Below, one piece after another: positions 2,940 to 29,183 of a stretch of 32,715 nt of DNA. Positions within the stretch are counted from its first letter, which is position 1. Each line of letters begins with the position of its first letter. The notes under the pieces were generated by a model. It was not told where the DNA came from, made no database searches, and saw only the letters and a program-made list of their open reading frames with translations. The position numbers and the translations under genes are program-made. Source of the DNA: a virus (taxonomy: Duplodnaviria; Caudoviricetes); IMG/VR virus record IMGVR_UViG_3300033412_000047, positions 1 to 32,715 of that record, one strand, 5' to 3'.

Positions 2940-4253
2940 TTATGTTACAGGCGTAATGACCACGGAAATTTCGGCATGGGTGGCCCCATGACAAACCGAT
3001 ACCGCAACATAAATAAAATCTGGACTAAAACTGGTTGAGAAATCTCCTTCATAAAAGACACTTCCCACAGAAGGCGCGCTGTCGTAAATCACACTCAAAT
3101 TTGTCGAGACCCGTATTTTCGCAAAGCTACCCAATGGGCTTGGATTTACCCCGTAGGCAGAAACATTGCCGTTAATTACAATGTGATAACTTCGCGGGGG
3201 ATTGTCGTTGCAAACCTGTGTCGTAAGAACGGCAATTGTATATCCATTGTCCGATACGTCTGGACTCGTGTAATCAGCGGAAATCGAAGCGTTTCCACCG
3301 GCGGCACTTGACGTGATGGTTGATTTATCCAAAAAGTCACCAGAAACCGGAAACCAAACAAAACTGCTTGGTGGTAATTGGGGGCAATTGGCGTGAAAAG
3401 CGGCGATAGCTGCGGAAGCCGGCGCATCAGCATCCTCTTGAGAAATAATGCTGTGATAAGTGTGCGCGGGGACGGTCAGGTTAGAGCCATCGCAACAAGT
3501 GTAGGATTGTTCATTGTTCCAATAAACCGTTGGACAAGCTGCGGTCGCGGCGTCTATTGCTTGCTGGTTTGCGTCAGCTTGAGAAACAGCAGAGAAGTAT
3601 GTTCTGGCCGCTATGGTTGAATCAGGCGCGAATTCACACGGAACAGTTTGCTGTTCGTTCACCCATCCGCATTGAAGATTTCCATTAGCGACATTGACGG
3701 CAATCAGTTGCCGTAAAAAATTCAGAGCATTATTGTTGGCATCCAGTTGTGAAATGGTGGACGAAAAAATGCCTTCGGTGACAGTGAATTGAAAATTTTC
3801 AAACACAATTCCAAACGGGATATTAGGGCTTCCAATAATGTTGACTGCCGGAAAATTAAGACAGGCCGCAGTAACGGATTGATTTAAAAAAATCGGTTGA
3901 GGCAGCGGATTTATCGGACTGCCGCTGGCGGCATCGCATTGGGCTTGTTGTGCGGCTGCCTGTTGCAACATTCCCTGAACCAACGCTTGAATCTGTTCAA
4001 AAGTTGAACCCACAGGAATTGGAACGGTTATCATGCTCTGACAACCTTGAAATGAGAGCGGTGATTGCGGTGGCGAATTAGGAGATAATGGATATGAAAA
4101 AGTATCAGCCGGAACGGTATAGGGAATCCCATTGATTATGGTCGTATATTCCACGCTCCTTACAACTACGCGATTCAGGCTGTATGCCAAAAGATAATCT
4201 TGAACGGCGTTATTCGGAACGTCGCAACTCATGTTGTCACAATTCTCGCTCAT
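2940..4253 (-). CDS. Virion-module protein with three DUF5977-like repeats
   Basis: Repeats FTVTEGIFSSTISQLDANNNA, STIAARTYFSAVSQADANQQA, LTVPAHTYHSIISQEDADAPA. ATG at 4253 forms an ATGA overlap with the upstream stop. Confidence 0.6.
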   Translation of the reverse strand: MSENCDNMSCDVPNNAVQDYLLAYSLNRVVVRSVEYTTIINGIPYTVPADTFSYPLSPNSPPQSPLSFQGCQSMITVPIPVGSTFEQIQALVQGMLQQAAAQQAQCDAASGSPINPLPQPIFLNQSVTAACLNFPAVNIIGSPNIPFGIVFENFQFTVTEGIFSSTISQLDANNNALNFLRQLIAVNVANGNLQCGWVNEQQTVPCEFAPDSTIAARTYFSAVSQADANQQAIDAATAACPTVYWNNEQSYTCCDGSNLTVPAHTYHSIISQEDADAPASAAIAAFHANCPQLPPSSFVWFPVSGDFLDKSTITSSAAGGNASISADYTSPDVSDNGYTIAVLTTQVCNDNPPRSYHIVINGNVSAYGVNPSPLGSFAKIRVSTNLSVIYDSAPSVGSVFYEGDFSTSFSPDFIYVAVSVCHGATHAEISVVITPVT

Positions 4254-24037: not shown

Positions 24038-24223
24038 AAATTTACTCCGGCATATTGGGTTGGCGTAGTGAGTGCGCCTGTGGGCGGCAGGCCGGAGTCT
24101 TACCGCAGTTGCCGCTCACACCTTCTGAGGCGAAGTCGGGACAGTTCGCTATTCATCTCACACTGTTCAAGTCCCTCACGTTCAATCCACCTGTTGTTGT
24201 GCGTGAGGGGCGATTTTGATTTT

Positions 24224-24928
24224 ATGCGGGAACTGATTTACAGCAACGATTTGATAGGCCAACGTCCGGTTGGAATAACGGATGGCCTTATCCGGCTTGT
24301 TGAAGATTCAACTGGCCGATGCGACGAAATTATCAAGGCGCATCATTACAGCCATAAGACAACCAAAAACAGATTTCTTTCGATGCTGGTGAATGAGGGA
24401 CTTGGAGCTATCCAGCTTGGTTACGGTATTAGGCCGAAAATGAAGCACACAATTTCGGAAGATATTTGTGAAGGAAATTTTTGTGAGTTTGACCGGATGT
24501 GGTTGAGCGATGAATTACCAAAATTCAGCGAAAGCCGGACGATTGGTTTGCTGTTGAGCTATATCAAGCGCGTTCATTCACGGATAAAATTCATCATCAC
24601 TTACGCCGACGAAAGCGCGGGAAACAAGGGAACGATTTACAAGGCGACAAACGCGATTCAGCTTAAATCTTTGGATTGCGATTTTTATGTCTTGCCTTCG
24701 GGCGAAAGAATCCATCCTGTTTCCATGTATCATCGGCATAAGACTCGTTCAAAAGCGTTCGTTCAAAAGCAGTATCCGGGCATCAAGCATATCAAGGGCG
24801 AGTTCAAACAATTCCGATTCCTGTATATTTTGGACAATAAATTGCGGAGGAAGTTTCAAGGCAGAAACGCTGGCGTTCCACGTCAGAGGGATGAGTTCAA
24901 TTCTCATACTCCGCCCCAATTAACATGA
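24224..24928 (+). CDS. mom: Mom-family adenine modification enzyme (GNAT fold)
   Basis: HHYS; QLGYG; EFDRMWLSDELPKFSES..I; IKFIITYADES.G..GTIYKATN; KQFRFLY. Start likelier at ATG 24224 than 24068. Confidence 0.85.
   Translation: MRELIYSNDLIGQRPVGITDGLIRLVEDSTGRCDEIIKAHHYSHKTTKNRFLSMLVNEGLGAIQLGYGIRPKMKHTISEDICEGNFCEFDRMWLSDELPKFSESRTIGLLLSYIKRVHSRIKFIITYADESAGNKGTIYKATNAIQLKSLDCDFYVLPSGERIHPVSMYHRHKTRSKAFVQKQYPGIKHIKGEFKQFRFLYILDNKLRRKFQGRNAGVPRQRDEFNSHTPPQLT
24844..24918 (+). tRNA. Atypical tRNA-Gly(UCC)-like RNA overlapping the mom 3' end
   Basis: GCGGAGG AA GTTT CAAGGCAG AAAC G CTGGC GTTCCAC GTCAG AGGG ATGAG TTCAATT CTCAT ACTCCGC C CCA: full cloverleaf, TCC anticodon, encoded CCA. Confidence 0.85.
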
Positions 24929-25281
24929 CCCGCTCCTTTACAGACCGAGAGCGCGAGCTATTAAAAGCCATGTCACTATTGCCACAGCCATTTACGACCA
25001 GAGATGTTATCGCCGTCGCTGCCGTCCGTTCGTCGGTTCAACATTTCATGGCCGTATTCACCAAACTGAAATTCATCAAACCTGATGGCCTACGATTGAA
25101 ACATAACCAGCCGCAGACCTATTGCCGGACAGATAAATTTCCCGACATGACAGACGAGCCGGTTGCAGAAAAAGAGCCTGCGCCAATCCTCAAGCGAACA
25201 CCCATAGAGGAGGCTTACTGGCAGATGCGTGACAGTTTCAATATCAAGACGAGGGCTGACGATCCGACTATTTATGAGTGA
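24925..25281 (+). CDS. Hypothetical protein (possible winged helix)
   Basis: 118 aa; overlaps both neighbours. Confidence 0.6.
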   Translation: MTRSFTDRERELLKAMSLLPQPFTTRDVIAVAAVRSSVQHFMAVFTKLKFIKPDGLRLKHNQPQTYCRTDKFPDMTDEPVAEKEPAPILKRTPIEEAYWQMRDSFNIKTRADDPTIYE

Positions 25282-28244: not shown

Positions 28245-29183
28245 ATGAAAGAACAACCCGACAACGACGAAATCAACCTGACCAAGCTGGCGCAGGACTA
28301 TTCAGACAACGACAAGGCGCGTGAGTTGCTCGAATCAATACGCTGGCCGAAAGGCATCATTTGCCCTCATTGCAATTGTTCGGGTCATTACGTATTAAAG
28401 CCAAGAGCCACAAGCAAAGTTCCGGCGCGTAAAGGGCTATACAAATGTAAAACGTGCTGGCGTCAATTCACTGTCACTGTCGGGACAGTCATGGAAGATA
28501 GCAAAATCCCGCTTGGCAAATGGCTCATGGCGTTCTTTATTCTTGGTTCAAGCAAAAAGGCCATTTCATCCCATCAACTTCACAGAATGTTAGGTGTGAC
28601 GTATAAAACGGCTTGGTTCATGTCCCATCGCATCAGACACGCGATGAAACCGCACCAAAGGCTCTTACAAGGCGTCGTAGAAGTGGATGAGACGTTCTTT
28701 GGCAAGAAGTCGGACGTTCGCACGTCTAAAAGCTCTAAATCATGCGTAGCCGCTCTTGTGGAACGCGGTGGAGAAGTCAGGACAAGAGTCGTTGCCAGTG
28801 TCACCCAAAAGAATATGGGCGCGTGTATTCGTGAGCTTGTGTCAAAGGACGCTATCATCAACACCGATAACCATTCAGCGTATGCCAATCTTGCCGATTA
28901 CAAAGGCCATGACGTTGTGAGCCATTCAACCGAAGGCTTCAACAAAATCACACTCGAAGGCCGCAGGGCATCCGTCAATTACTGCGAATCGTTCTTTTCC
29001 CTGATGAAACGCGGAATAGTCGGAGCATTTCATCATGTTTCCAAAGAGCATCTGCCTAGATATTGCGATGAGTTCGCGTTCAGGTGGAACACAAGGAAAC
29101 ATACGGACGGCGAACGATTTGAAGTGGCTATCGCCGCGATTGAAGGCAAGCGGCTCAAATATAACGACGCGATAGCGCGTTAA
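28245..29183 (+). mobile_element. IS1595-family (ISXO2-like) DDE transposase
   Basis: RWP.G..CPHC..YKCKTC..QFTVTVGT Zn ribbon; HTH with YKTAWFM.HRIR; VEVDETF, TD...Y, N..ESFFSLMKRG..G.FHHVS.EHL.RY..EF.FRWN. Confidence 0.95.

What the first reader, a model, noticed from the sequence alone, without database searches (positions are those of the whole stretch)
24224..24928. Mom-family DNA modifier with a tRNA-Gly(UCC)-like RNA embedded in its own 3' end
Seen: 24844-24918 folds as a complete 75-nt cloverleaf with a UCC anticodon and encoded CCA, lying within the last 28 codons of the mom-like ORF. It keeps GlyRS identity elements G1-C72, C2-G71, G3-C70, C35 and C36. It deviates at G7.A66 (mismatch), A8, G32/C38 and C73 (bacterial tRNA-Gly normally has U73), and has an A49-U65 pair. 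Established: Mu Mom makes N6-(1-acetamido)adenine, a glycine-like adduct that blocks restriction; staphylococci use non-proteinogenic tRNA-Gly as donors for GNAT-fold Fem ligases. I recall recent work reporting Gly-tRNA as the Mom donor (to be verified). Inference: a dedicated non-ribosomal glycyl-donor RNA co-encoded with its enzyme. RNase P excision would also leave a non-stop mom mRNA, which could couple donor supply to enzyme level.
Basis: partly seen in the sequence, partly recalled or inferred. Interest (0 to 1): 0.85.

Follow-up and report, generated by a model that had tools for sequence, protein, structure and literature searches.

The report
Glycine-carrier tRNA inside phage mom genes
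This phage hides a rebuilt glycine-tRNA gene inside the end of its DNA-disguising mom gene; the same RNA family recurs with Mom enzymes across many uncultured phages and likely supplies them with glycine outside the ribosome, though no bench test exists yet.

Summary
Confirmed. A 75-nt cloverleaf (24844-24918; UCC, encoded CCA) overlaps the last 28 codons of a Mom-family gene. It belongs to an RNA family not found in my literature searches: 100 distinct copies with covarying stems, read in all three frames. It lies at 43 of 92 close Mom loci. Searches on the RNA alone returned mostly more distant Mom subfamilies. Of 27 RNA-bearing virus records checked whole, 22 encode Mom, against 0 of 110 controls.

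The family keeps GlyRS marks (C2-G71, G3-C70, C35, C36, mostly G1-C72 and U73). It has lost decoding marks: A8, free U33, paired 32-38, frequent ACC, and a T-stem predicted weak for EF-Tu. Mu Mom's use of Gly-tRNAGly is published (PMC13219725). Best reading: a phage-encoded, likely non-ribosomal glycine donor for Mom (0.7).

Caveats: no expression or charging data; Mom often lacks the RNA; this copy alone has C73 and a normal-strength T-stem. The non-stop mRNA coupling is untested. Earlier unchecked notes of this scan saw Mom-linked odd glycine tRNAs on other DNA.

The parts
24224..24928 (+). mom-family gene, 234 aa (GNAT-type DNA adenine modifier by homology). The core ends near residue 206. 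Residues 207-232 are the translation of the RNA.
   Evidence: Pfam PF25680 9e-38; PHROG 1384; Mu Mom 8BV8 E 8e-21. H41, Y42, R91, S104, D129 and Y139 align with Mu H58, Y59, R111, S124, D149 and Y159, and S131 stands at Mu R151 (Mu numbering inferred as chain number + 9). Many homologues stop right after the core.
24844..24918 (+). tRNA-Gly-like RNA, 75 nt with encoded CCA; member of the Mom-associated RNA family
   Evidence: Rfam 36.9 bits; family model R1 83.3 bits (this copy was in the training set); fold; the only Rfam tRNA match in the complete 55.5-kb phage record G052.
24844..24850 (+). Acceptor stem 5' strand. It pairs with 24908-24914 (G1-C72, C2-G71, G3-C70, G4-C69); 7-66 is G.A.
   Evidence: 7-66 is unpaired in 20 of 40 protein-first family copies and in 0 of 43 canonical tRNAs.
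24853..24868 (+). D arm with an extra C14-G21 pair (5-bp stem), preceded by A8
   Evidence: A8 in 40 of 40 and C14-G21 in 38 of 40 protein-first copies, with one U-A swap.
24870..24886 (+). Anticodon arm; UCC at 24877-24879; G32-C38 closes a 5-nt loop
   Evidence: 32-38 is Watson-Crick in 37 of 40, with 20 both-side changes in alignment A2.
24891..24907 (+). T arm (A49-U65, U50-A64, G51-C63; T-loop of the usual TTC type)
   Evidence: predicted EF-Tu dG -10.6 kcal/mol, the normal range for glycine tRNA.
24915..24918 (+). Discriminator C73 and encoded CCA
   Evidence: U73 in 93, A73 in 6 and C73 in 1 of 100 distinct copies; CCA encoded in 37 of 100.
24925..25281 (+). Next ORF (118 aa, no family match). 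Its start overlaps the mom stop, so the RNA probably sits inside a polycistronic transcript.

Best explanation
The cloverleaf is a member of a conserved, Mom-associated family of glycine-tRNA-like RNAs, and it is likely cut out of the mom transcript, charged with glycine by the host synthetase and used as Mom's glycine donor rather than on the ribosome. Shown here: the fold and its covariation, the link to Mom, the retained GlyRS identity bases and the lost decoding features. Published for Mu Mom: glycyl transfer from Gly-tRNAGly to N6 of adenine in DNA, which rearranges to 6-NcmdA and blocks restriction. Inferred: transcription with mom; release by RNase P and 3' trimming, with CCA added by the host where it is not encoded; charging; poor EF-Tu and ribosome use, giving a Gly-tRNA pool that translation does not compete for; and activity of this Mom. 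The RNA is an optional booster, not a requirement.
For: (1) Covariation on a sequence-only alignment of 37 copies: 97.5% of cells paired, and 245 both-side changes against 68.6 in shuffles and at most 45 with slid partners. (2) The RNA overlaps Mom ORFs in all three frames (27, 19 and 1 of 47), and identical RNAs follow different Mom subfamilies with the junction at the RNA's 5' end, so selection acts on the RNA, not the peptide. (3) Mom to RNA: 43 of 92 distinct Mom proteins, 38 of 73 clusters at 90%. (4) RNA to Mom: a 3'-half pattern with no anticodon information gave 81 members among 90 loci. Of the 71 members with flanks, 59 overlap a Mom ORF by profile and 2 more by inspection. (5) Whole-record checks: Mom in 9 of 12 and 13 of 15 RNA-bearing records, against 0 of 22, 0 of 39 and 0 of 49 controls, the last carrying canonical tRNA-Gly-type genes. 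(6) GlyRS marks in 40 protein-first copies: C2-G71 40, G3-C70 40, R4-Y69 40, G1-C72 35, U73 36, C35/C36 40. These match the published identity set (PMC10464925, PMC9976931). (7) Decoding marks are lost: U33 25 of 40 against 43 of 43 in controls, G51-C63 7 of 40 against 40 of 43, ACC 16 of 40, and predicted EF-Tu dG -9.7 +/- 0.55 against -10.9 +/- 0.39. Staphylococcal non-proteinogenic tRNAGly is -9.6 (PMC7826273). (8) D-loop/T-loop pairs covary (G.U with A.G at 18:55, U.A with G.G at 54:58), consistent with the L shape that GlyRS needs (PMC10464925). (9) Stand-alone copies lie 2-30 kb from mom in the same record, which fits a trans-acting RNA.
Against: There is no evidence of expression, processing, charging or use. 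Mu Mom works with all three E. coli tRNAGly isoacceptors (PMC13219725), and 16 Mom-bearing virus records, 5 of them at least 90% complete, have no copy. This copy has C73, which lowers charging by E. coli GlyRS more than U73A does (PMC9908026), and a T-stem predicted to bind EF-Tu normally (-10.6). The EF-Tu estimate uses only three pairs and ignores the 7-66 mismatch. This Mom subfamily has Ser at Mu R151, which Mu Mom needs, so its activity and amino-acid specificity are assumed. Five RNA-bearing records show no Mom; all are 3-51% complete. Copies are related by descent, so the counts overstate independence.
Confidence: 0.7

Rival explanations
1. The family is a glycine donor, but this particular copy is weakened or drifting, and the phage relies on host tRNAGly.
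For: It is the only C73 among 100 distinct copies. Its closest relative L013 (84% protein identity) keeps U73. It is one of 6 of 97 copies with a tight T-stem. The RNA is patchy on the Mom tree (13 changes among 70 tips).
Against: All four stems are intact, with compensatory differences from L013; C35, C36, G1-C72 to G4-C69 and CCA are kept. U73C lowers but does not abolish E. coli GlyRS charging (PMC10464925). The host's GlyRS type is unknown.
Confidence: 0.13
2. The cloverleaf works in cis as a tRNA mimic inside the mom mRNA, bound by Mom or GlyRS or cut by RNase P, to limit a toxic enzyme; it is not used as a donor.
For: In 81 of 82 copies with an upstream Mom ORF the frame runs into the RNA. 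Three unconserved linkers of 27-47 codons outside fusions stay open while 5 of their 6 other frames hold stops. Mu mom is described as a lethal function under tight control (reference title in PMC13219725).
Against: Copies also occur 5' of mom, in the linker of Mom-Mom fusions and up to about 30 kb away. Acceptor-end identity, U73 and encoded CCA are kept. Short linkers hold a conserved Trp, so they are probably protein, and a single origin per lineage could explain the overlap.
Confidence: 0.09
3. It is an odd but decoding phage tRNAGly, or a decoy or nuclease-proof spare against tRNA-targeting defences, that travels with mom because Mom drains the Gly-tRNA pool.
For: This copy has U33, a TTC T-loop, UCC and a tight T-stem. 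Host toxins that single out tRNAGly exist (TacT, passage in PMC9976931; FaRel2, PMC11559606, search listing only). The family never uses GCC (0 of 96 despite 21 changes at position 34), which the donor model does not explain.
Against: Position 33 is A, G or C in 42 of 96 copies and ACC occurs in 21; ACC is not among the bacterial Gly classes in Table 1 of PMC3239215. 32-38 is paired in all four Watson-Crick forms, some anticodon stems have 4 bp, and 7-66 is often unpaired. Canonical tRNA-Gly-type genes show no Mom link (0 of 49).
Confidence: 0.07
4. It is a chance fold or a left-over host tRNA or integration site.
For: ARAGORN at default does not call it, and the Rfam score is modest.
Against: Covariation and the Mom link argue against chance. 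It was not found in 120 further sampled genomes of one bacterial phylum, so it is not a general host tRNA there.
Confidence: 0.01

Closest known systems
Phage Mu Mom (PF25680; PDB 8BV8; PMC13219725)
   Same: Homologous enzyme with six of seven checked active-site positions kept; the published donor is Gly-tRNAGly.
   Different: About 28% identity, with Ser at R151. Mu Mom is shown with host tRNAGly, and the passages read mention no phage-encoded donor. Here the gene carries a tRNA-like RNA in its own 3' end.
Non-proteinogenic tRNAGly NP1-NP3 of Staphylococcus aureus, donors for FmhB/FemA/FemB (PMC7826273, PMC3239215)
   Same: Glycine identity is kept, the T-stem is weak for EF-Tu (family mean -9.5 to -9.7 against -9.6), D/T loops are altered, and the partner is a GNAT-type transferase.
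   Different: Phage-borne and serving DNA modification. It has a different core (A8, C14-G21, paired 32-38, G54.G58, 7-66 mismatch), UCC/ACC/CCC anticodons, and overlaps the coding sequence of its enzyme. No common descent with NP1-3 was tested.
Canonical bacterial and phage tRNA-Gly (Rfam RF00005)
   Same: Cloverleaf, GlyRS identity bases, often encoded CCA.
   Different: Controls have U33 in 43 of 43, paired 7-66 in 43 of 43 and G51-C63 in 40 of 43, score only 33-45 bits on the family model against 66-91 for full-length members, and show no Mom link.

Membership tests
Mom family | Match to Pfam PF25680 above the cut-off and to Mu Mom | tested here: met
   130 bits against cut-off 27; 8BV8 E 8e-21
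Mom family | R111, S124, H58, Y59, D149, Y159 equivalents | tested here: met
   R91, S104, H41, Y42, D129, Y139
Mom family | R151 equivalent (needed in Mu Mom; not shown to define the family) | tested here: not met
   S131; Ser in 69 of 70 aligned homologues
Mom family | GNAT fold in a structural model | not tested
   The structure job had not finished; the fold is inferred from sequence homology only
Mom family | Makes 6-NcmdA from Gly-tRNA | not testable with these tools
   needs LC-MS
tRNA-Gly (GlyRS substrate) | G1-C72, C2-G71, G3-C70, R4-Y69, C35, C36 | tested here: met
tRNA-Gly (GlyRS substrate) | U73 discriminator | tested here: not met
   C73 in this copy; U73 in 93 of 100 family copies
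tRNA-Gly (GlyRS substrate) | Processed, CCA-ended and glycylated in cells | not testable with these tools
   CCA is encoded; no RNA holder listed
Canonical decoding tRNA | U8, A14, A21 core and fully paired acceptor stem (invariants recalled from general knowledge) | tested here: not met
   A8, C14-G21 and G7.A66
Canonical decoding tRNA | Invariant U33 and open 7-nt anticodon loop | tested here: not met
   This copy has U33 but a G32-C38 pair; family U33 is 54 of 96 against 43 of 43 in controls
Non-proteinogenic tRNAGly (works like) | T-stem predicted weak for EF-Tu | tested here: inconclusive
   Met for the family (-9.6, n=97); not met for this copy (-10.6)
Non-proteinogenic tRNAGly (works like) | Genetic link to an aminoacyl-tRNA-dependent transferase | tested here: met
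   against controls 46, 73, 81
Non-proteinogenic tRNAGly (works like) | Measured preference of the transferase and exclusion from translation | not testable with these tools
   needs kinetics

The most novel reading that the evidence does not exclude
Phages make a DNA-modifying enzyme and its private aminoacyl-carrier tRNA from one overlapping message. Cutting out the tRNA removes the enzyme's stop codon, so each transcript gives either enzyme or donor, which balances supply against a toxic enzyme. The RNA acts as a fixed cassette end onto which different Mom enzymes are swapped in frame.
Probability: 0.25. Interest if true: 0.92.

Novelty: new variant of a known kind. Interest (0 to 1): 0.8.

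Why it matters
The donor for Mom was identified only recently, and the paper treats it as a scavenged host resource. A phage-encoded tRNA family rebuilt for charging but not decoding would be, as far as my searches reach, an undescribed case of a dedicated tRNA cofactor for DNA modification. It would also extend dedicated glycine-donor tRNAs beyond the staphylococcal cell-wall case. It gives one concrete answer to why phages carry tRNAs and shows a class that ARAGORN misses at default. It explains the spurious conserved C-terminal tails of many Mom homologues. It also supplies about 100 natural variants that separate GlyRS recognition from ribosome function. The key claims can be tested with in vitro transcripts and laboratory E. 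coli.

Tried and rejected
ARAGORN at default found nothing; at lowered thresholds it returned mostly noise. Sequencing runs: no RNA holder listed; the one contig laid is near-identical and may be this DNA's source, so it says nothing on C73 or on expression. No sigma-70-like promoter was found near mom (0 found, 2.3 expected), and the upstream region is not conserved in the closest relative, so I make no claim of Com-like control. blastn of the RNA against 50,697 annotated phage records gave only partial tRNA-Glu-type matches. I did not scan the cultured phages with distant Mom matches with the RNA model. The structure prediction never returned. The first tree run gave no answer; the FastTree run is midpoint-rooted and I did not assess support, so I claim no order of gains and losses. 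I rejected the idea that the RRKFQ-type tail is conserved as protein, because it is read in three frames and is absent where the RNA is absent. I rejected A49-U65 as an EF-Tu anti-determinant. The open-linker test is weak, as explained under rivals. L226 (45.7 bits) and three 25-bit matches were not counted as members, and L226 was dropped from the 13 records. Two 3'-truncated matches (L036, L052) count in 43 of 92 but not in the feature tallies.

Full report
1. Observation. The window is part of a phage; the matching IMG/VR record G052 is 55,519 bp with direct terminal repeats and is rated complete. ORF 24224-24928 lies in a run of replication and recombination genes (DnaB, Erf-like protein, exonuclease, resolvase) and is a Mom-family protein (Pfam 9e-38; Mu Mom chain 8BV8 E 8e-21). 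Rfam calls it tRNA at 36.9 bits, ARAGORN at default misses it, and it is the minimum-energy fold (z -2.56). In mRNA context the D, anticodon and T arms stay well formed, while the acceptor stem falls from about 0.55 to 0.14 pairing probability as more flank is added. It is the only Rfam tRNA match in G052.

2. A family, selected as RNA. Many of the 120 listed homologues (of 810 found) end in a tail like the window's, and others stop right after the core. I fetched Mom loci from three collections (two searches returned only the best 80 of 357 and of 231), which gave 92 distinct proteins. A cloverleaf descriptor with no sequence constraint found the same kind of RNA at the end of the Mom core in many of them. 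On a sequence-only alignment of 37 copies, 97.5% of 801 cells pair, with 245 both-side changes against 68.6 in shuffles and 21-45 with slid partners. A covariance model built from these 37 finds the RNA at 43 of 92 loci, or 38 of 73 clusters at 90% identity; two of the 43 are cut by contig ends. Overlapping ORFs read it in all three frames (27, 19 and 1 of 47). Identical RNAs follow two different Mom subfamilies, with the junction at the RNA's 5' end (L004/L201 and L059/L206). The tail peptide is therefore a by-product of the RNA.

3. The link to Mom from the RNA side. Three IMG/VR pattern scans used no anticodon information. Two 5'-half patterns gave 30 members among 55 loci and 10 among 46. 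A 3'-half pattern gave 81 among 90. Of the 71 members of that scan with flanks, 59 overlap a Mom ORF by profile, 2 more by inspection, 4 have Mom nearby and 6 have none in the flank. Most of these Mom proteins are distant subfamilies (E about 1e-8 to 1e-27 to my profile) that the protein-first scans had not returned. For RNA-bearing loci whose flank was short or whose Mom was unclear, absent or not overlapping, I searched the whole record. Mom was found in 9 of 12 (non-member L226 dropped) and 13 of 15 (one record not held). The five misses are 3-51% complete. Controls were 0 of 22 and 0 of 39 records whose pattern match is not a member and 0 of 49 records picked by a canonical tRNA-Gly pattern (49 records from the 121 loci). 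The RNA was not found in 120 further sampled genomes of one bacterial phylum. The link is one-way: 16 Mom-bearing records, 5 at least 90% complete, have no copy. On a Mom tree presence changes 13 times among 70 tips (shuffles 23.5, minimum 15). Placement varies: mostly over the 3' end, but also 5' of mom, in the linker of Mom-Mom fusions, and 2-30 kb away.

4. What the RNA keeps and loses. Tallies from pattern scans are biased at the patterned positions, so I give the 40 distinct protein-first copies against 43 canonical control tRNAs. Kept: C2-G71 40, G3-C70 40, purine4-pyrimidine69 40, G1-C72 35, C35/C36 40, U73 36. These are the published GlyRS determinants (PMC10464925 and PMC9976931, passages). 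Changed: A8 40; C14-G21 38; 32-38 Watson-Crick in 37, in all four forms (controls 15, all U-A); U33 25 (controls 43); 7-66 unpaired 20 (controls 0); G51-C63 7 (controls 40); TTC at 54-56 in 13 of 38 (controls 41 of 43). Anticodons are UCC 21, ACC 16 and CCC 3. With the EF-Tu increments of PMC3239215 (passages and section 9) the family averages -9.7 +/- 0.55 kcal/mol (n=38) against -10.9 +/- 0.39 for controls (n=42) and -10.8 to -11.0 for published Gly classes; staphylococcal non-proteinogenic tRNAGly is -9.6 (PMC7826273, passages). D-loop and T-loop bases covary (G.U with A.G, U.A with G.G), which suggests that the elbow is kept. Over all 100 distinct copies (57 at under 85% identity), 96 have a 7-nt loop with NCC and 4 have irregular loops that still hold CC. 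None has GCC, although position 34 changes 21 times on an RNA tree. I cannot explain that.

5. This copy. It is atypical in two ways that weaken the case for it specifically. It is the only C73 of 100, and U73C lowers E. coli GlyRS charging more than U73A (PMC9908026, passage), without abolishing it (PMC10464925, passage). Its T-stem scores -10.6, the normal range. Its non-canonical marks are A8, C14-G21, G32-C38 and G7.A66. The enzyme keeps six of seven checked active-site positions and has Ser at Mu R151, as do 69 of 70 aligned homologues.

6. Mechanism. Published: Mu Mom transfers glycine from Gly-tRNAGly to adenine N6, any E. coli isoacceptor serves, and the authors note the possible cost of co-opting translation (PMC13219725: abstract, passages, sections 13, 14 and 38). 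Inferred: the RNA is transcribed with mom, released by tRNA processing, charged by host GlyRS and, being a poor ribosomal substrate, feeds Mom (0.7). Rivals: a decaying copy (0.13), a cis-acting mimic (0.09), a decoding or decoy tRNA (0.07), chance (0.01). On coupling: in 81 of 82 copies with an upstream Mom ORF the frame runs into the RNA, the exception being a stop 32 nt earlier in L033, so 5' cleavage would remove the stop codon. Only three long unconserved linkers outside fusions bear on whether that overlap is selected, so this remains a hypothesis.

7. Novelty. Seven searches found no paper on a Mom-linked phage tRNA. Term searches in the Mom paper and its preprint found none. Two supplementary files of the paper were searched without hits and one image-only PDF could not be read; bioRxiv supplements are closed and most subscription papers are not held. 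Rfam has no family for it beyond generic tRNA. Earlier AI notes of this scan (read after I had stated my reading) report Mom-linked odd glycine tRNAs in other phages, and one mentions an RNA embedded in mom. They are unchecked, and I did not test whether their RNAs are this family. One of them supplied the identifier PMC3239215. It works like staphylococcal non-proteinogenic tRNAGly but is a structurally distinct, phage-borne family paired with a DNA-modifying enzyme. I rate it a new variant of a known kind, interest 0.8.

Noticed in passing
L004:3637-3712 with L201:5000-5075; L059:675-750 with L206:4951-5026 (-): Identical RNAs follow two different Mom subfamilies, with sequence identity starting just before the RNA's 5' end and the frame open in each: an enzyme swap in front of a fixed RNA.
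   Followed up: partly
L099/L006, L200/L005, L205, L216: The RNA lies in frame in the linker of a 515-aa fusion of two Mom-like domains; in L099, L200 and L216 a third mom gene lies directly upstream.
   Followed up: partly
family-wide, position 34: No GCC anticodon among 96 copies, although U, A and C interchange about 21 times; unexplained.
   Followed up: partly
L060 near 645; L033 near 704: mom is interrupted while the RNA is intact: an early stop with the rest in another frame in L060, and a stop 32 nt before the RNA in L033. Mutation, assembly error or recoding not distinguished.
   Followed up: no
L277, around 2996-3071 (-): The RNA overlaps only the C-terminal part of a Mom that is joined to unrelated sequence, with another Mom match elsewhere in record G055: a rearrangement or assembly join.
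   Followed up: no
G001, G003, G004, G010, G011, G056, G061, G069: Large phage records with stand-alone RNA copies often hold two or three Mom paralogues.
   Followed up: no
window 28245-29183: IS1595-family (ISXO2-like) transposase gene in the phage.
   Followed up: no
L489:11680-15262 (record G052): A cluster of sugar-modifying genes (GH130-like, DegT aminotransferase, hexapeptide acetyltransferase, weak glycosyltransferase matches) in the same phage.
   Followed up: no
window 24088-24220: Two inverted repeats seen by eye upstream of the mom start; the region is not conserved in the closest relative L013.
   Followed up: partly
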